From the NCBI GenBank assembly GCA_036381015.1, contig DASVDR010000001.1:5325-69324 (forward strand): 64,000 nt of DNA, given 5' to 3'. Under the pieces are notes generated by a model. That model was not told the origin of the DNA, ran no database searches, and saw only the letters and a program-made list of their open reading frames with translations. Position 1 is the stretch's first letter; every line of letters begins with the position of its first letter. Of the stretch, positions 11,382 through 17,790 are shown piece after piece. Source of the stretch: Gammaproteobacteria bacterium (lineage in GTDB: Bacteria; Pseudomonadota; Gammaproteobacteria; Steroidobacterales; Rariloculaceae). The translations under genes were made by a program, and so were the position numbers.

Positions 11382-11978
11382 TCAGTCCGCAGGCGTGATC
11401 GTGATCGCCTCCGCGCGGCTGTAGGTGACCATGACCCGATCGCCCGGCTTGAGCGCGGCCACGAAAGCGCGCATCTCGGGCTGCTGCACGGCCACCTCGG
11501 TGGGGAAGCCTTCGGGTCCGCTGATCCGCACGATGTTGCGGGTCGAATCGATGGCCTCGATCGTGACGACGCCGGTATACGTCCGGCTCCGAGTGGCACC
11601 TGGCCGGTTGCCGTCCGAGCCGAGCTCGCGGGTGGACACCGGATCCTCGCCGCCGGCCGGGGCATCGGTGACCTCGGCGGCCACGGCTTCGTAATAGCTC
11701 GACGTGATGCGGTCGCCGACCTCGATGCGCTCGAAATCGCTCACCTCGTCGGGCACGAGGAGCGTCAGCGGCCGGCCCTCGTCAGTCGTGACGCTGATCA
11801 GCCGCGTCTGCGGATAGACTGCGGTGACCGTGCCGGTGACGTCCCGGCGCTGCGCCGTCGACACGGGCTCCGGCGGCGGGGCTGCGCAGGCCGCGAACGC
11901 GGCTGCGATGGCGCCGAGCGCCGCGTGCGCACGCTTGCTCGAAGCTCGCGTGTGTTGCTTCGTCGGTAACGAATCCAT
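11382..11978 (-). CDS. lipoprotein with two tandem copies of a ~55-aa beta-rich domain
   Basis: Start moved to ATG 11978 (SD GGAGG). Lipobox is AAFAAC. The repeats TGTVTAVYPQTRLISVTTDEGRPLTLLVPDEV...GDRITSSYY and TGVVTIEAIDSTRNIVRISGPEGFPTEVAV...GDRVMVTY resemble the C-terminal part of the partial gene at 1..410. Confidence 0.65.
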   Translation of the reverse strand: MDSLPTKQHTRASSKRAHAALGAIAAAFAACAAPPPEPVSTAQRRDVTGTVTAVYPQTRLISVTTDEGRPLTLLVPDEVSDFERIEVGDRITSSYYEAVAAEVTDAPAGGEDPVSTRELGSDGNRPGATRSRTYTGVVTIEAIDSTRNIVRISGPEGFPTEVAVQQPEMRAFVAALKPGDRVMVTYSRAEAITITPAD

Positions 11979-12176: not shown

Positions 12177-15100
12177 TCACCACATCCGCACGCGCTCGTC
12201 GGGCGCGAGATAGAGCGCATCGCCCGGCTCGACACCGAACGCGTCGTACCAGCCGTCGAGGTTGCGGACCGTCGCCGCGCGGAAGCGCCCGGGGGCATGC
12301 ACGTCGGTGCTCACGCGCTCGCGGAGCGCGGCCTCGCGCATCTGGGTGCGCCACGTCTGCGCGTAGGCGATGAAGAAGCGCTGCTCTCCCGTGAGCCCGT
12401 CGATGATCGGTGCGGGCTTGCCTCCGAGCGACTTCTGGTACGCGAGGAACGCGGCCGCGAGGCCGGCCCCGTCGGCGATGTTCTCGCCGAGCGTCTGGCG
12501 CCCGCTCAGATGGATCCCGGGCAGCGGCTCGTAGGCATCGTACTGTGCCACGAGCGCCTCGCCCTGTTCCTTGAAACGCGCGGTATCCTCCGGGGTCCAC
12601 CAGCTCAGGAGCCGCCCCTGCGCGTCGAACTCGGCGCCGAGGTTGTCGAAGCTGTGGCTGATCTCGTGCCCGATGACGGCGCCGATCGCGCCGTAGTTCG
12701 CGGCCGGGTCCGCGTTCGCATCGAAGAACGGCGGCTCGAGGATCGCGGCCGGGAAGTTCAGCGCGTTCTGGAGCGGCAGGTTCACGGCGTTGACGGTCTG
12801 CGGCGTCATCCACCACTCGCCGCGGTCGACGGGCCGGCCGAGCTTCGCCTCGACGCGCGCGAGCTCGTGCTGCTCCGCGCGCAAATGGTTCCCGAGCGCG
12901 TCGTCGGGCCGGATCTCGAGCGAGGAGTAATCGCGCCAGGTGTCGGGATAGCCGACGCCGACGCGCAGCGCCGCGAGCTTTTCCTTCGCCTTCCGCTTCG
13001 TCGCGGGCGTCATCCACTCGAGGGCATCGATGCGGGCGTCGAAAGCCGAGCGCAGGTTCGCGACGAGCTTCTCGACCTCGGCCTTTGCCGACGCCGGGAA
13101 ATACTTCTCGACGTAGAGCCGGCCGACGGCGTAGCCGAGATCCGCGTTCGTGTAGCTCACGGCACGCTTCCACCGCTCCTGCTGCTCGGGAACGCCCCGG
13201 AGCGTGCGGCCGTGAAAGTCGAACGCGAGGTCGGCGTAAGTCTTCGGCAACAGCGGCGCATAACGATCGAGCGTGTGGAAGCGCAGCAGCGTCTTCCATG
13301 CCGCGAGCGGCGCCTCGCCCACGAGCTTCGCGAGGCGTGCGATCGCCTCTGGCTGCCACACGCCGATGCGCTCTTGATCGGAAAGGCCGGCCGCCTCGAG
13401 GTAGCGCGCCCAGTCGAGGCCCGGCGCATTCGCCGCGAAGTCCGATGGCGTCCATAGCGTGTTCGCCTTGTGCACGTCCTCGCTCTCGACGAGCGTCGCC
13501 TGGGCTGCGGCGATTTGCGTCTCGAGGTCGAGCACGGCCTCCGCGTCCGCGTCGGCGTTCACCGAGCCGGCGGCGCGGAGCAGGGCGGCGACGTAGGTGC
13601 GGTACTCGTCGCGGATGTTCCGCATCGCCGCGTCGTCGGAGAGGTAGTAGTCGCGGCCCGGCATCGCGAGGCCGCCTTGGAGCAGATAGGCGATGTTGTG
13701 CGACGGGTCTTCGAGCCCTTGAGCGACGAAGAGGCCGAACAGGCGGTCCGTCTGGAAGTCCGTGTTGTTGATGGGATCGACGTCGGCCAGGAGCCGGCTG
13801 CCGAGCACGCGCGCAAGATCCGCGCGCGACGAGATCCCCTCGATCGCCGAGAGCTCCGCCTCGAGCGGCTCGAGCCCGCGGCGCTCGATCGACGCCTCGT
13901 CCATGAAGGCCGCGAAATAATCGGCCACTTTGCGCGCGTCGTTGCCCGCGGGCGGGTTCGACTCCCCGGCCTCGCGGATCACGTCCGCCGTCCGGCGCTC
14001 GGCCTTCTCGTAGACCTGCAGAAACGTCCCCGTGCTCGCACGGTCGGCCGGAATCTGCGTCGACGCCTGCCAGCGTCCGTTCGCGAACGCGTAGAAATCA
14101 TCGCCCGGATTCACCGAGCGATCCATGCCGGCGAGATCGATGCCGATGGCCGCAGTGGCGGGCGCGCTGCGCGTTTCGGGCGCGCCCGCACCGGCGCTCC
14201 CGCCGCTCGGCGATCCGGCCGTCGCGCCGCTCGGCGACTCGCCCGCTCCGCCGCTCTCGCGGCTGCGCGTGAGCTCGTCGAGCAGCGCGTCTTGCCCGTA
14301 AACCTTGCGCAAGGCCTCCGTGACGGCCGCGGTCGAGACCGATACGGAGCGGTTGACCGCCGGATCGAACAGGAACGTTCCTCCGAGGCTCTCGATGTTG
14401 CCGTCGAAGATCGCGCCGACGACATTCGCGTTCGCGTCGATGAGCGGTGAGCCCGAGTTGCCGCCGACGACGTCGTTGTCGCTGACCATGTCGAGCACGA
14501 CGCGGTGATCGACGACGCCCTCGGCCTCGACCCACCTCGGCGCGAGATCGTACGGGAACTTGCCGGTCGCCCGCTTCCAGAGGCCGTCGAAATACGTGAA
14601 CGGCGGCACGGTCGTGCCGTTGTCGGTCCAGCCCGCGATCTTGCCGTAGGAGATGCGCAACGAGAACGTCGCGTCCGGGTACGTGCTCGTGCCGTAGATC
14701 GCGAACCGCGCCTTCGCGATGCGCTCCGCCGCGCGGTCCGTCGGCCCCTCGACGAGCGCCTCGTACTCCTTGCGCACGGCGCGCGACGCCTCGTCGGTCT
14801 CGAGCACGAAGCGGATCATCGGGTCGTCGGAGGATTCGACGGCGGCGCGACCGCCGTCCCAAAGCTCTTTTCTATATGCGGCGTCCGCGAGCTTCGAGCG
14901 AGCGAGCGCGGCGGCGAGGTCCTCGGGCGAGTCCTTGCCGAGGAAGGTTTGCGTGGCCGGCGCATCGGCCGTCAGATACTCGCGCAGCTTCGAAAGCCAG
15001 AACTCGAGGTGGAGCTCCTCGAGCTCGGGATAAACAGGCCGCTCGTCGAGCAGCCGCTTCTCGAGCAACGGCAGCCGGCTGTCGGTGTACTCCGGGAGGC

Positions 15101-16334
15101 GCTCTCCGTTCGGCTTCGGCCGTTCCTCTGCGGCGCGCACGAGGGCGCGCGCGTACCCGAAGAGCTCGGAGCCCGAGCCCGCGTTCGACTCGAGGAAGGT
15201 GTAGGGGTAGTAGAGGCGCTTGCGGTCGGCCTGGGCTGCGGCGATGTCGGCCCATGGGTCGCCGATCTCGCCCGCGAGCTTCGGGTCGGCGGCGACCTTG
15301 GCCGCGAGCTCCTCGTCGGCGCGGCGCTTCGTTGCAATGAAATCCGGCTCGAGCAGGGCCTTTTGCATTCCCCGGTACGCTTTGAGCGTGTTCTCCGTGC
15401 CGAAGAGCGCATCCTCGGCGATGCGCGCGTGCTCGGCGCTCTCCTCGCGGAAGCGGATGAGACGGCCGCGCAGCTCCGAGAGCAGGATCAACGAGTGCGG
15501 CAAGCTGAGATCGCGCAACGTCTCGAGCTGCTCGGCCGTGAGCAAGCGCCGCGTCGTGCCGGGGTTCCCGACGACGAAGACGGGCTCGCCGTCGGCCGGC
15601 GCCGTCGTGCTCCAATTCAAATGATCCGGCGACGCGATCGGCCGCCCGTCCTCGTAGAGGCGCACGAACGAGAAGTCGAGGTCGTAGCGCGGAAAGTTGA
15701 AATTATCCGGATCGCCGCCGAAGAACGCGGTCTGAAGCTCGGGGGCGAATACGAGACGCACGTCGGAGAATTTGCGATACGTATACAGCTTGTACTGCCC
15801 GCCGTGGTAGAGCGTGATGACCTGACAGCGATACTTCGCTTCGCGGCCGTCGCAGGCCTCGCGCTCGACGGCGGCGATCTCGGCATCGCGGGCTTTGACG
15901 TAGTCGCTCCCGGTCTTTCCGGCTGCGGCGTCGCTGACGCGCTGCGTCACGTCCGTAATCGACGCGAGAATCTCGGCCTGCATGCCGGGGCAGCTTCGCT
16001 CGCCTTCTCGGCCGTTCGCGACGAAGCCGTTCTTGACGTAGTCGCCGCTGCCCGTCGAGAGGGCCTGCGCGCACTCGCGCACGCAATGATGATTCGTGAA
16101 CACTAGCCCTTCATCGCTCACGAGCGAGGCCGAGCAGCCCGACGAGAGCCGGACCGCGGCGTTGCGCACGCGATCGAGCCAGGCTCGATCGATCGTTACG
16201 CCGTACTTGTCCTTCACCGCGGCGGCAGGGAAATTGTCGAACGTCCACATGCCTTCGTCGCCGAGGACGGCGGGCGAACGCAGCGACGCGGCGGCGATCA
16301 GCATGGCGAACGCGAGCGGCAGCAGTTTCTTCAC
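12177..16334 (-). CDS. single ORF fusing an S46 (DPP7/DPP11-type) serine dipeptidyl-peptidase to an M13 (PepO / endothelin-converting-enzyme-type) zinc metallopeptidase
   Basis: The track ORF is 12177..17342, and its first 336 codons are antisense junk. Start is GTG 16334 with SD GGAGGAGG, giving signal peptide VKKLLPLAFAMLIAAASLRSPAVLG. S46 motifs are DEGMWTF, TNHHC and GGNSGSP. A Gly/Ser/Ala linker follows (RESGGAGESPSGATAGSPSGGSAGAGAPETRSAPATAA). M13 features are GIDLAGMDRSVNPGDDFYAFANGRW, HEISHSFD (HExxH) and a C-terminal W. There is no stop codon between the halves. Confidence 0.8.
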   Translation of the reverse strand: MKKLLPLAFAMLIAAASLRSPAVLGDEGMWTFDNFPAAAVKDKYGVTIDRAWLDRVRNAAVRLSSGCSASLVSDEGLVFTNHHCVRECAQALSTGSGDYVKNGFVANGREGERSCPGMQAEILASITDVTQRVSDAAAGKTGSDYVKARDAEIAAVEREACDGREAKYRCQVITLYHGGQYKLYTYRKFSDVRLVFAPELQTAFFGGDPDNFNFPRYDLDFSFVRLYEDGRPIASPDHLNWSTTAPADGEPVFVVGNPGTTRRLLTAEQLETLRDLSLPHSLILLSELRGRLIRFREESAEHARIAEDALFGTENTLKAYRGMQKALLEPDFIATKRRADEELAAKVAADPKLAGEIGDPWADIAAAQADRKRLYYPYTFLESNAGSGSELFGYARALVRAAEERPKPNGERLPEYTDSRLPLLEKRLLDERPVYPELEELHLEFWLSKLREYLTADAPATQTFLGKDSPEDLAAALARSKLADAAYRKELWDGGRAAVESSDDPMIRFVLETDEASRAVRKEYEALVEGPTDRAAERIAKARFAIYGTSTYPDATFSLRISYGKIAGWTDNGTTVPPFTYFDGLWKRATGKFPYDLAPRWVEAEGVVDHRVVLDMVSDNDVVGGNSGSPLIDANANVVGAIFDGNIESLGGTFLFDPAVNRSVSVSTAAVTEALRKVYGQDALLDELTRSRESGGAGESPSGATAGSPSGGSAGAGAPETRSAPATAAIGIDLAGMDRSVNPGDDFYAFANGRWQASTQIPADRASTGTFLQVYEKAERRTADVIREAGESNPPAGNDARKVADYFAAFMDEASIERRGLEPLEAELSAIEGISSRADLARVLGSRLLADVDPINNTDFQTDRLFGLFVAQGLEDPSHNIAYLLQGGLAMPGRDYYLSDDAAMRNIRDEYRTYVAALLRAAGSVNADADAEAVLDLETQIAAAQATLVESEDVHKANTLWTPSDFAANAPGLDWARYLEAAGLSDQERIGVWQPEAIARLAKLVGEAPLAAWKTLLRFHTLDRYAPLLPKTYADLAFDFHGRTLRGVPEQQERWKRAVSYTNADLGYAVGRLYVEKYFPASAKAEVEKLVANLRSAFDARIDALEWMTPATKRKAKEKLAALRVGVGYPDTWRDYSSLEIRPDDALGNHLRAEQHELARVEAKLGRPVDRGEWWMTPQTVNAVNLPLQNALNFPAAILEPPFFDANADPAANYGAIGAVIGHEISHSFDNLGAEFDAQGRLLSWWTPEDTARFKEQGEALVAQYDAYEPLPGIHLSGRQTLGENIADGAGLAAAFLAYQKSLGGKPAPIIDGLTGEQRFFIAYAQTWRTQMREAALRERVSTDVHAPGRFRAATVRNLDGWYDAFGVEPGDALYLAPDERVRMW

Positions 16335-16796
16335 GGCATTTTCCTCCTCCGCTACGAGAGTATCACGAGCCCGGCTCGCGGCGTCTCGTCCGCGCCCGGC
16401 GCGGTCGGCGTTCGCGGACCCGGTGCCGGTCTTTACTATGTCGACAAGACCAGCGCGCCGGTTCTCGACCTCGAGATCGGCTCGTCGATCAGCGGAATGG
16501 GATGTGACGTCTTCGAGACTCCCTCGCCCTTCTTCGCTCCGCTTTCGCCGGCGCTGCCGAACGACCCATCGACCACGGGCGTATCCGAGCTGTCCTATCA
16601 ACCCCCGATAACGATACGGCGTTCGCAATAATGGCCGAAGTGCTCCGCGTCGAATGATCGACGGCGGAGCCGAGACACTCGGGCGCCCGAGCACCGAAGC
16701 AGGAGCCGAACGCTCGCGCCGCGCGACCGGTGGACGCCGGTCGCGTCGCTCGGCGTAGACTGAGCGCCTGATCACCCCGGAACTCGGAGGGCGCAA

Positions 16797-17327
16797 GTGG
16801 ACGTTCTTTCGCCATCGCCTTACACCTTGATCCTCAACGACCTTCAGCCGATGCACTGGGCCATTGCCGGCGCGGCGATCGGCCTGATCACGCTGTGCCT
16901 GCTTTTCGTCGCGAATCGCCGGCTCGGCATCTCGACCGGATTCGAGGACCTGTGCAGCTTCGTGCTGCGCCGGCCGTACTTCCGGCGTCGCGCGGTCGTC
17001 TCGGGCCGGACGTGGCGGCTGCCGTTCCTCGCCGGCCTCGTGCTCGGCGGCGTCCTGTCGGCCGTGCTCGGCGGCGGGTGGGCGCTCAGATGGGACGCCG
17101 GCATGCTCGACACGGTCTTCGCGCTCGGAGCGGGCGCGAAGCTGATGTGGATGTTCGCCGGCGGGCTGCTGATCGGTTTCGGCACTCGGCTCGCGGGGGG
17201 CTGCACGAGCGGCCACGGCATCTTCGGGCTGTCGAACGCCGAGGGCTCGGGCCTTGCGACGACACTGGCCTTCATGGCCGGGGGCGTGCTGACGACGCAG
17301 CTGCTGTATCGCGTCGTCGCAGGCTGA
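16797..17327 (+). CDS. YeeE/YedE-family sulfur-compound transporter component
   Basis: GTG start 6 nt after SD GGAGG. 176 aa with the conserved LAGGCTSGHG motif. Confidence 0.85.
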   Translation: MDVLSPSPYTLILNDLQPMHWAIAGAAIGLITLCLLFVANRRLGISTGFEDLCSFVLRRPYFRRRAVVSGRTWRLPFLAGLVLGGVLSAVLGGGWALRWDAGMLDTVFALGAGAKLMWMFAGGLLIGFGTRLAGGCTSGHGIFGLSNAEGSGLATTLAFMAGGVLTTQLLYRVVAG

Positions 17328-17343
17328 AAGGGAGCAATGCACG

Positions 17344-17790
17344 ATGACGATGCTCTATCTCATCCTCGGCACGCTGTTCGGGTTCGTCCTGAGCCGCTCG
17401 GGCGCCGGCGACTACGACATGATTCAGGGCATGTTCCTGTTCGAGCGTTTTCAGCTCTACGGGGTCATCGGCGTCGCGATCCTCGTGACCGCGCCGGGCC
17501 TGTGGCTGTTGAAGCGACGCGGCCGCTCGCTGCTCGGTCGCCCGCTCGAGCTCGAGAGCAAACCGCGGCATCGCGGCAACATCGCCGGCGGACTTTTGTT
17601 CGGCATCGGCTGGTCGATCACCGGGATGTGCCCCGGTCCGATCCTCGTGAACATCGGCGAAGGCAAGCTGTATGCGATCGCCGCGCTGCTCGGCGCTCTG
17701 CTCGGCGCCGGCGCTTTCGGTACGCTGTACTCGCGGCTCGAGCGCGCGTTCGCGCTGCCGCCGCTCGTGAAAGGCACCGGCGACGGTTGA
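17344..17790 (+). CDS. YeeE/YedE-family partner membrane protein (second half-transporter)
   Basis: 148 aa, starting 17 nt after the previous gene. Motif GWSITGMCPGP is typical of the paired YedE-like half. Confidence 0.8.
   Translation: MTMLYLILGTLFGFVLSRSGAGDYDMIQGMFLFERFQLYGVIGVAILVTAPGLWLLKRRGRSLLGRPLELESKPRHRGNIAGGLLFGIGWSITGMCPGPILVNIGEGKLYAIAALLGALLGAGAFGTLYSRLERAFALPPLVKGTGDG

What the first reader, a model, noticed from the sequence alone, without database searches (positions are those of the whole stretch)
12177..16334. S46 serine dipeptidyl-peptidase and M13 zinc endopeptidase encoded as one continuous ~1385-aa ORF
A complete S46 enzyme (signal peptide, DEGMW, TNHHC, GNSGSP, ending ...ALLDELTRS) runs without a stop into a Gly/Ser/Ala-rich linker at about 14151..14270. 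The ORF then continues into a complete M13 peptidase (GIDLAGMDRSVNPGDDFY ... HEISH ... terminal W).

The M13 half has no signal peptide or lipobox of its own. The only nearby Met (14126..14124) lies inside the conserved N-terminal motif. The linker resembles the flexible tether that normally follows the lipobox in M13 lipoproteins.

This suggests a genuine fusion, a tandem endo- plus dipeptidyl-peptidase for sequential periplasmic peptide degradation, formed by loss of the intergenic region and signal sequence. It could still be an assembly or sequencing error that hides a stop.
Basis: partly seen in the sequence, partly recalled or inferred. Interest (0 to 1): 0.6.

Follow-up and report, generated by a model that had tools for sequence, protein, structure and literature searches.

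The report
Real S46–M13 two-peptidase fusion gene
This soil gammaproteobacterium really does encode one secreted 1385-residue protein that joins a dipeptide-releasing serine peptidase to a zinc endopeptidase; it is a rare but conserved gene fusion, and it hints that the two enzyme families work together in peptide breakdown.

Summary
One minus-strand ORF (16334..12177, 1385 aa) holds:
- a Sec signal peptide;
- a full-length S46 dipeptidyl-peptidase (Pfam E 1e-207);
- a 39-residue Gly/Ala/Ser/Pro linker;
- a full-length M13 endopeptidase with no signal peptide of its own.

It is not an assembly error. The same architecture occurs in two other independent assemblies, at 85-86% and 76-78% identity. 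Their linkers differ in sequence and length but stay in frame. Zero-mismatch contigs from two different soil metagenome studies span the junction.

Both halves keep their catalytic residues and evolve under purifying selection (dN/dS 0.12-0.23). The linker drifts (0.7-1.3).

A same-genus genome has the S46 gene alone, ending at "ELTR*", exactly where the linker begins. A same-family genome carries both halves as separate genes about 800 kb apart. Its M13 is a lipoprotein with a Gly/Ser/Pro/Asp tether.

So the fusion put the S46 enzyme where the M13 signal peptide and lipid anchor used to be.

It is rare: 2 of 85 family genomes, 3 proteins in the 5.8-billion-cluster search, none among the top 150 hits against 1.84 billion cluster representatives.

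The sequential endo-then-dipeptidyl action in the periplasm is inferred, not shown. Verdict: a new domain architecture of two known families, of moderate interest.

The parts
16343..16350 (-). Shine-Dalgarno-like GGAGGAGG, 8 nt upstream of the GTG start
   Evidence: Read directly.
16260..16334 (-). Start codon GTG and Sec type-I signal peptide (residues 1-25, VKKLLPLAFAMLIAAASLRSPAVLG|DEGMW). It has no Cys, so it is not a lipoprotein signal.
   Evidence: The mature DAP BII chain (3woj) starts at the aligned GEGMW. Both orthologues start at the same position. No signal-peptide predictor was run; this is read by eye.
14265..16259 (-). S46 dipeptidyl-peptidase module (residues 26-690). Catalytic His83, Asp220 and Ser627. 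Phe643 and Gly645 mark the DPP7/DAP BII type.
   Evidence: Pfam PF10459, E 1.3e-207, full length. Full-length alignment to DAP BII 3woj, E 3e-69. Residue positions. The same-genus standalone gene ends at the aligned ...ELTR*.
14148..14264 (-). 39-residue low-complexity linker (residues 691-729, SRESGGAGESPSGATAGSPSGGSAGAGAPETRSAPATAA). It contains no start codon, stop codon or Cys.
   Evidence: Its length and sequence vary among the three fusions, all in frame, with dN/dS 0.7-1.3. Zero-mismatch contigs from two runs cover it.
12180..14147 (-). M13 zinc endopeptidase module (residues 730-1385). It begins at the conserved IGIDLAGMD. Key residues: HEISH 1223-1227, Glu1284 and Asp1288 in GENIAD, His1346, Arg1352 and the C-terminal Trp. 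It has no signal peptide of its own.
   Evidence: Pfam PF05649 and PF01431. Alignment to Zmp1 3zuk/7k1v, E about 1e-150, over residues 729-1385. Residue positions.
12177..12179 (-). Stop codon of the fusion ORF

Best explanation
This is a genuine, selectively maintained gene fusion. It is translated as one precursor of about 150 kDa.

**Shown**
- Continuous ORF.
- The architecture is conserved in three independent assemblies.
- Catalytic residues are intact in both halves.
- Both halves are under purifying selection.
- The M13 half has no signal of its own.
- Unfused homologues exist in related genomes.

**Inferred mechanism**
- The single N-terminal Sec signal peptide takes the whole chain to the periplasm.
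- There a DPP7/DAP BII-type S46 dipeptidyl-peptidase and a neprilysin/PepO-type M13 oligoendopeptidase stay joined by a flexible 39-residue Gly/Ala/Ser/Pro tether.
- The S46 module sits where the M13 enzyme's signal peptide and lipid anchor used to be.
- M13 cuts oligopeptides internally and creates new N-termini.
- The tethered S46 module then removes dipeptides from those ends.
- The dipeptides are taken up, for example by a POT-type transporter. One such gene lies directly downstream in one of the three fusion loci.
- The fusion would fix 1:1 stoichiometry and proximity of the two enzymes.
For: **Continuous ORF and full-length domains**
-.

**Same architecture in independent assemblies**
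- G002/NCBI MAG (85-86% identity) and a JGI contig (76-78% identity).
- Junction contigs with 0 mismatches in runs X1 (13734-14414) and X2 (13691-14284 and 14270-14511). The two runs come from different samples and studies.

**Selection**
- dN/dS is 0.12-0.19 for S46 and 0.14-0.23 for M13. The linker gives 0.73-1.28.
- dS is 0.5-0.75, and all linker indels are in frame.

**Catalytic residues**
- The S46 triad and the DPP7-type Gly align to DAP BII. PMC8048996 gives the Gly666/Arg673 rule.
- M13 HExxH, ExxxD and HxxxxxR align to Zmp1.

**Unfused states in relatives**
- The G009 S46 gene ends at ELTR*. Nucleotide similarity to the window stops at 14275.
- G061 has S46 (74%) and a lipoprotein M13 (67%) at separate loci.
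- Every standalone M13 relative inspected has its own signal peptide or lipobox plus a spacer.

**Context and literature**
- A POT/PTR2 transporter gene lies directly downstream in L014.
- DPP7-type enzymes are periplasmic, prefer hydrophobic P1 and P2 residues, and feed dipeptide uptake (PMC8048996).
- Cleavage by M13 enzymes on the amino side of hydrophobic residues is established knowledge for neprilysin-type enzymes. It comes from memory and was not tested here.
Against: - There are no protein-level data. Nothing shows that the 150-kDa chain persists rather than being clipped in the linker.
- No RNA run holds the gene.
- Neither activity was assayed, and substrate hand-over between the modules is pure inference.
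- The neighbourhood gives little support in the window itself. The POT gene is adjacent only in the JGI locus. In G000 the nearest POT homologue lies on another contig.
- The gene is patchy: 2 of 10 genus genomes and 2 of 85 family genomes.
- Its flanks differ between G000 and G002. It is therefore an accessory gene, not a core pathway component.
- Signal peptide cleavage was judged by eye only.
Confidence: 0.82

Rival explanations
1. The chain is a polyprotein-like precursor. It is made and exported as one polypeptide, using the single S46 signal peptide. The exposed linker is then cut by itself or by periplasmic proteases, releasing two independent soluble enzymes. On this view the fusion serves co-export and equal dosage, not physical coupling.
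For: - The linker is long, low-complexity and nearly neutral in sequence. Such a stretch is typically protease-accessible.
- The protein carries two peptidase activities of its own.
- The M13 half needs the upstream signal peptide, but nothing requires it to stay attached afterwards.
Against: - The linker has no conserved cleavage motif across the three fusions.
- Gly/Ser/Ala/Pro tethers of similar composition persist uncleaved in M13 lipoproteins. This is inferred from their conservation.
- There is no direct evidence either way.
Confidence: 0.12
2. Assembly or sequencing artefact. Two separate genes, or two organisms' contigs, were joined through a GC-rich low-complexity stretch that hides a stop or frameshift.
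For: - The window comes from a metagenome-assembled genome.
- The linker is GC-rich low-complexity DNA.
- Long open frames arise easily at 69% GC; the ORF runs spuriously up to 17342.
Against: - Three independent assemblies share the architecture. Their linkers have diverged but remain in frame.
- Zero-mismatch contigs from two different studies span the junction.
- The M13 half has no signal peptide, start codon or RBS of its own, yet it is under purifying selection.
Confidence: 0.02
3. Decaying or non-functional fusion. An accidental join left one half, most likely the M13 half, inactive or mislocalised.
For: - The distribution is rare and patchy.
- The genome keeps a separate lipoprotein M13 paralogue on contig C46.
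Against: - dN/dS for the M13 half is 0.14-0.23 across dS 0.5-0.75, about the same as for the S46 half.
- All zinc-binding and catalytic motifs are kept in all three fusions.
- The fusion is the only S46 gene found in G000.
Confidence: 0.04

Closest known systems
DAP BII of Pseudoxanthomonas mexicana and DPP7 of Porphyromonas gingivalis (family S46, MEROPS S46.001 type)
   Same: - Full-length S46 fold, with the chymotrypsin-like domain interrupted by a helical domain, E 3e-69 to 3woj.
- The His/Asp/Ser triad, the Phe664-equivalent and the Gly666/675-equivalent that mark the hydrophobic-P1 DPP7 type.
- An N-terminal Sec signal, with the mature end at the conserved (D/G)EGMW.
   Different: - It carries a C-terminal 39-aa linker plus a complete M13 peptidase.
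- Known S46 enzymes end at the position equivalent to ...ELTR.
- The score against the NCBIfam Dpp7 equivalog model is far below its cut-off: 201 versus 1200 bits.
- Activity is untested.
Bacterial M13 endopeptidases: Zmp1 of Mycobacterium tuberculosis (3zuk), PepO, and proteobacterial M13 lipoproteins
   Same: - Both M13 Pfam domains.
- About 45% identity to Zmp1 over residues 729-1385.
- HExxH, GENIAD, VHAPxxFR and the C-terminal Trp.
- The domain begins at the same conserved G[IV]DLAG[IM]D motif as standalone relatives.
   Different: - It has no signal peptide or lipobox of its own.
- The tether hangs from an S46 enzyme instead of a lipidated Cys or a cleaved signal peptide.
- The score against the NCBIfam PepO equivalog model is 293 versus 1000 bits.
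Other N-terminal fusions to M13 seen in the same database search: M28-M13 (P0008, P0011), M1-M13 (P0034) and alpha/beta-hydrolase-M13 (P0017)
   Same: - M13 is always the C-terminal module.
- The join lies immediately before the G[IV]D(L/I)xxMD motif.
- The partner is an exopeptidase-type or other hydrolase and, where the N-terminus is complete, it carries the only signal peptide.
   Different: - The partner families differ.
- The junctions are short or not Gly/Ser-rich, except in P0017.
- These proteins were not checked for conservation or assembly errors here.

Membership tests
Peptidase family S46 (DPP7/DAP BII subtype) | Full-length match to the S46 family model | tested here: met
   PF10459, E 1.3e-207, model positions 2-697 of 698.
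Peptidase family S46 (DPP7/DAP BII subtype) | Catalytic triad His/Asp/Ser at the positions of DAP BII His86, Asp224 and Ser657 | tested here: met
   His83 (TNHHC), Asp220 (RYDLDF) and Ser627 (GNSGSP) align with the DAP BII motifs. The DAP BII residue numbers are from memory.
Peptidase family S46 (DPP7/DAP BII subtype) | Gly rather than Arg or Ser at the S1-determining position (Gly666 in PgDPP7, Arg673 in DPP11) | tested here: met
   FDGN in the query aligns to FDGN of wild-type DAP BII (3woj). Chain 4y06 reads FDRN at this position. The rule is stated in PMC8048996.
Peptidase family S46 (DPP7/DAP BII subtype) | Equivalog-level identity with Porphyromonas Dpp7 (NCBIfam NF053519) | tested here: not met
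   201 bits against a cut-off of 1200. It is a family member, not an equivalog.
Peptidase family S46 (DPP7/DAP BII subtype) | Dipeptidyl-peptidase activity | not testable with these tools
   Needs an enzyme assay.
Peptidase family M13 (neprilysin/PepO) | Both M13 domains (PF05649 and PF01431) at full length | tested here: met
   E 5e-110 and 4e-59, with full model coverage.
Peptidase family M13 (neprilysin/PepO) | Zinc ligands HExxH plus the Glu of ExxxD, and the catalytic His and Arg near the C-terminus | tested here: met
   HEISH 1223-1227, GENIAD Glu1284/Asp1288 and VHAPGRFR His1346/Arg1352 all align to Zmp1.
Peptidase family M13 (neprilysin/PepO) | Own export signal (signal peptide, lipobox or signal anchor), as in extracytoplasmic M13 enzymes | tested here: not met
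   There is no hydrophobic segment, Cys or start codon in residues 691-737. Standalone relatives have one.
Peptidase family M13 (neprilysin/PepO) | Equivalog of Lactococcus PepO (NF052391) | tested here: not met
   293 bits against a cut-off of 1000.
Genuine gene fusion ('Rosetta stone' composite protein) | Uninterrupted reading frame across the junction, reproduced in independent sequence data | tested here: met
   Zero-mismatch contigs from two runs span the junction.
Genuine gene fusion ('Rosetta stone' composite protein) | Composite architecture conserved in diverged orthologues | tested here: met
   G002 at 85-86% and the JGI contig at 76-78%, colinear end to end.
Genuine gene fusion ('Rosetta stone' composite protein) | Components occur as separate genes in related genomes | tested here: met
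   G009 has S46 alone. G061 has S46 and M13 about 800 kb apart.
Genuine gene fusion ('Rosetta stone' composite protein) | Both components under purifying selection after the fusion | tested here: met
   dN/dS 0.12-0.23 in both halves.
Genuine gene fusion ('Rosetta stone' composite protein) | A single polypeptide detected in the cell | not testable with these tools
   No proteomic data. No RNA run holds the gene.

The most novel reading that the evidence does not exclude
The S46-M13 protein may be one instance of a recurrent, undescribed design. In it the N-terminal tether of periplasmic M13 endopeptidases is a hotspot for capturing N-terminal exopeptidases: S46 here, and M28, M1 and an S33-like hydrolase in other lineages.

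The result would be tethered endo/exo-peptidase machines. The M13 module cuts oligopeptides internally and passes the products directly to the attached exopeptidase. Because S46 enzymes are homodimers, the S46-M13 version would be an assembly of about 300 kDa with two M13 heads.
Probability: 0.25. Interest if true: 0.55.

Novelty: new variant of a known kind. Interest (0 to 1): 0.4.

Why it matters
- Both enzyme families are well known. S46 enzymes are studied as antibacterial targets, and M13 enzymes as bacterial neprilysin and ECE homologues.
- Their functional relationship in Gram-negative peptide catabolism is mostly inferred from Porphyromonas.
- A conserved, selected fusion is classic 'Rosetta stone' evidence that the two act in the same pathway and compartment.
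- It offers a natural single-chain system for testing whether tethering an endopeptidase to a dipeptidyl-peptidase speeds conversion of oligopeptides into transportable dipeptides.
- It also shows that the lipoprotein tether of M13 enzymes can be swapped for a protein partner.
- The impact is modest. No new chemistry or fold is implied, and the gene is rare.

Tried and rejected
1. **Assembly error.** Rejected on three independent assemblies and on contigs from two runs.
2. **Independent internal start for M13.** The linker has no in-frame ATG, GTG or TTG, and no SD lies before M737. Such a product would also lack the conserved N-terminus and any export signal.
3. **Relic of a signal peptide in another frame of the linker.** The two alternative frames shown (ORFs 14111..14425 and 14098..14862) are Arg-rich, not hydrophobic.
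4. **Fusion of two formerly adjacent genes.**
   - None of 160 related loci with up to 6 kb of flank has S46 next to M13, except the G002 fusion itself.
   - The matches of about 4.3 kb in Brevundimonas and Caulobacteraceae are tandem S46 paralogues.
   - The L133 match 'residues 1-850' is a standalone S46 next to rpoC.
5. **M13 half acquired from Rhodanobacteraceae.** Rhodanobacter and Dyella M13s are 63-67% identical. A same-family genome (G061) has one at 67%, so import from outside the family is not needed.
6. **Conserved synteny.** The genes flanking the fusion in G002 and the JGI contig (M50, HK, RR, Exo_endo_phos, transketolase) have no orthologues anywhere in G000. The G009 flanks also differ.
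7. **Promoter and terminator scan.** Uninformative.
8. **RNA evidence.** No run was found.
9. **Literature.** No paper mentions an S46-M13 fusion.
10. **Full-length structure prediction.** Not possible, because 1385 aa exceeds the 1200-aa limit. Partial constructs were judged uninformative and not run.
11. **Earlier scan notes near this place.** They concern a contractile injection system operon and other features, not this gene.


Full report
**1. The observation**

The minus strand carries an open frame from 17342 to 12177. The part upstream of 16334 is spurious. It overlaps two Sulf_transp genes on the plus strand (16797-17327 and 17344-17790). Both orthologues begin at the M/VKK that matches the GTG at 16334. 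A GGAGGAGG sequence lies 8 nt upstream of that GTG.

Translating 16334..12177 gives 1385 residues without a stop. Pfam finds three domains:
- Peptidase_S46 over residues 26-689 (E 1.3e-207, 697 of 698 model positions);
- Peptidase_M13_N over residues 743-1130 (E 5e-110);
- Peptidase_M13 over residues 1182-1382 (E 4e-59).

The linker is residues 691-729 (window 14264..14148; 9 Gly, 9 Ala, 8 Ser, 4 Pro, no Cys). The only nearby Met is M737 (14126..14124), inside the conserved GIDLAGMD motif. The linker has no in-frame ATG, GTG or TTG.

**2. Is the fusion real or an artefact?**

A length-restricted search of 5.8 billion protein clusters found two other proteins with the same four Pfam domains and end-to-end colinearity:
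- P0003: 1393 aa, 85% identity, from an NCBI MAG labelled 'Gammaproteobacteria bacterium SMAG_U2280';
- P0004: 1388 aa, 76% identity, from a JGI metagenome contig of 86.6 kb.

The genome search found the first again as G002, in the same GTDB genus. Both sit inside ordinary gene neighbourhoods on their contigs.

The three linkers differ in sequence and length. G002 has 7 more residues and the JGI protein about 21 fewer. All stay in frame.

Logan contigs of two soil metagenome runs from different samples and studies cover the junction with zero mismatches and zero gaps. In X1 a 681-nt piece spans 13734-14414. In X2 the pieces span 13691-14284 and 14270-14511. One of these runs may be the window's source, but not both. 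An assembly or sequencing error is therefore very unlikely.

**3. Is it functional?**

*S46 half.* It aligns over its whole length to DAP BII of Pseudoxanthomonas mexicana (3woj, E 3e-69).
- The catalytic residues are conserved: His83 (TNHHC), Asp220 (RYDLDF) and Ser627 (GNSGSP).
- The mature N-terminus is the conserved (D/G)EGMW.
- The S1-determining position reads FDGN (Gly645), with Phe643 two residues before it.
- By the published rule this is the DPP7/DAP BII type, which prefers hydrophobic P1. It is not the Asp/Glu-specific DPP11 type. The rule sets Gly666 in DPP7 against Arg673 in DPP11 (PMC8048996).

*M13 half.* It aligns over residues 729-1385 to Zmp1 of M. tuberculosis (3zuk/7k1v, E about 1e-150). 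HEISH, GENIAD, VHAPGRFR and the terminal Trp are all conserved.

*Selection.* Nei-Gojobori estimates on the three fusion genes give:
- dN/dS 0.12-0.19 for the S46 part;
- dN/dS 0.14-0.23 for the M13 part;
- dN/dS 0.73-1.28 for the linker;
- dS 0.5-0.75.

Both enzymes have stayed under purifying selection since the fusion. The linker is constrained only in frame and composition.

**4. How did it arise?**

G009 is a complete genome of the same genus (GyrB 87% identical). It has an S46 gene of 72% identity that ends '...DALLEELTR*'. That is exactly where the fusion continues '...DALLDELTRSRESGG'. Nucleotide similarity to the window stops at 14275.

A scan of all 85 genomes held for the family found the fusion only in G000 and G002. 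G061, from another genus of the family, has the best standalone match to each half on one contig, about 800 kb apart:
- S46 at 74% identity, ending '...ELLAP*';
- M13 at 67% identity.

The G061 M13 is a lipoprotein: MKIHHPAFCAWSACLLLAAC|GGPGPGDSGDAASREARLDAPAGIDL....

The window's own genome also has a standalone M13 paralogue at 44% identity on contig C46. It has a lipobox (LALTGC) and a 36-residue Asp/Ser/Pro/Ala tether before GIDL. The Rhodanobacter and Dyella homologues (63-67%) have type-I signal peptides followed by Ala/Pro/Ser/Thr spacers.

So every standalone relative brings its own export signal and a low-complexity spacer. In the fusion the signal is gone and the spacer hangs from the last residue of S46.

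The 'lost intergenic region' idea is not supported. Among 160 related loci fetched with flanks, only the G002 fusion holds both families. The longer matches in Brevundimonas are tandem S46 paralogues.

**5. Distribution and organism**

GyrB places the genome among unnamed soil Gammaproteobacteria. The next-nearest relatives are Steroidobacteraceae and Woeseiaceae. Genus members share 87-91% GyrB identity.

The fusion is patchy:
- It occurs in 2 of 10 genus genomes. Two complete genomes of the genus lack it.
- The genes flanking it in G002 and the JGI contig are M50-CBS, a PAS histidine kinase, a response regulator, Exo_endo_phos and a transketolase-like gene. None has an orthologue anywhere in G000.
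- The window's flanks are a DUF1993 gene, an unannotated lipoprotein, two Sulf_transp genes and a contractile injection system operon further on.

It is therefore an accessory gene that has moved or been lost repeatedly.

An exhaustive phmmer search used residues 186-1385 against 1.84 billion cluster representatives. All of the top 150 hits (477 bits or more) are single-half proteins. No other S46-M13 composite of comparable similarity exists in that library. More divergent composites below that score cannot be excluded. The first search also scored only 8000 candidates.

No paper in the held library mentions such a fusion.

**6. Mechanism**

*Shown:* there is one ORF and one signal peptide, with two intact catalytic modules joined by a flexible linker.

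*Inferred:*
- The precursor is exported by Sec and the signal is cleaved before DEGMW.
- The M13 module acts on oligopeptides, cleaving on the amino side of hydrophobic residues. This is established knowledge for neprilysin-type enzymes, recalled from memory and not tested here.
- The cut produces fragments with new N-termini.
- The tethered DPP7-type module prefers hydrophobic P1 and P2 residues (PMC8048996). It trims those ends into dipeptides for uptake.
- In the JGI locus a PTR2/POT transporter gene follows the fusion on the same strand. That fits this pathway, but the adjacency is absent in G000 and G002.

The main rival is that the linker is cut after export, so that the fusion only provides co-export and 1:1 dosage. 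Sequence alone cannot decide this.

**7. Comparison with what is known**

Each half is an ordinary member of its family at the family level. Neither reaches the NCBIfam equivalog cut-offs for Porphyromonas Dpp7 or Lactococcus PepO. The new element is the architecture.

The same search also turned up other composites in which M13 is the C-terminal module, joined just before the G[IV]Dxx(M)D motif:
- an M28 aminopeptidase (P0008, P0011);
- an M1 aminopeptidase (P0034);
- an alpha/beta hydrolase (P0017).

This suggests that the M13 N-terminal tether recurrently captures exopeptidase partners. That lead was only partly followed.

**8. Verdict**

This is a real, conserved, rare fusion of two known peptidase families, that is, a new variant of a known kind. 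Interest is moderate (0.4). It is useful Rosetta-stone evidence for endo/exo-peptidase coupling and a tidy experimental system, but it implies no new chemistry.

Noticed in passing
P0008, P0011, P0034, P0017, P0030 (proteins): Other composite proteins place M13 as the C-terminal module, joined just before the conserved G[IV]D..MD motif. The N-terminal partners are M28 aminopeptidase (two diverged sequences), M1 aminopeptidase with ERAP1_C, an alpha/beta hydrolase, and a metallo-beta-lactamase-fold domain. This suggests that M13 recurrently captures exopeptidase-type partners at its N-terminus.
   Followed up: partly
P0037, P0063/P0066/P0059/P0060, P0021 (proteins): S46 peptidases also occur with extra modules. 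Partners seen are a C-terminal tannase/feruloyl esterase, a C-terminal 3-keto-disaccharide hydrolase (DUF1080) domain in clusters with 129 and 45 members, and N-terminal TonB_C repeats.
   Followed up: partly
L014 12267-13790 (+): In the JGI fusion locus a PTR2/POT-family peptide transporter gene lies 100 nt downstream of the S46-M13 gene on the same strand. It is not adjacent in the window or in G002.
   Followed up: partly
L093 5923-8055 and 8235-10313; likewise L084, L088, L092, L095: Brevundimonas and Caulobacteraceae genomes carry two tandem, same-strand S46 paralogues 180 nt apart. These explain the matches of about 4.3 kb in the locus search.
   Followed up: yes
window 11382-11978 (-): About 200 nt downstream of the fusion, on the same strand, lies a gene for a protein of about 198 aa. 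It has a lipobox-like AAFAAC and no Pfam match. It is not found next to the other two fusions.
   Followed up: no
window 16335-17342 (-) versus 16797-17790 (+): The fusion's frame stays open for a further 336 codons upstream of the true start. This stretch overlaps two plus-strand Sulf_transp (YeeE/YedE-like) half-size genes. It is a typical high-GC shadow ORF that would inflate a naive gene call to 1721 aa.
   Followed up: yes
L013 and L014 flanks versus genome G000: The genes flanking the fusion in G002 and the JGI contig are M50-CBS, a PAS kinase, a GerE response regulator, Exo_endo_phos, a transketolase-like gene and Phosphodiest. None has an orthologue in G000, although GyrB is 88% identical. 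The fusion gene sits in variable genome regions.
   Followed up: partly
P0006: A 984-aa 'S46' protein from a JGI contig loses similarity to the other S46 proteins in its second half and then appears to restart an S46 N-terminus. It looks like a frameshifted or tandem S46 gene call rather than a real long protein.
   Followed up: no
The rpoC region seems to be missing or masked in this 95.7%-complete assembly.
   Followed up: no
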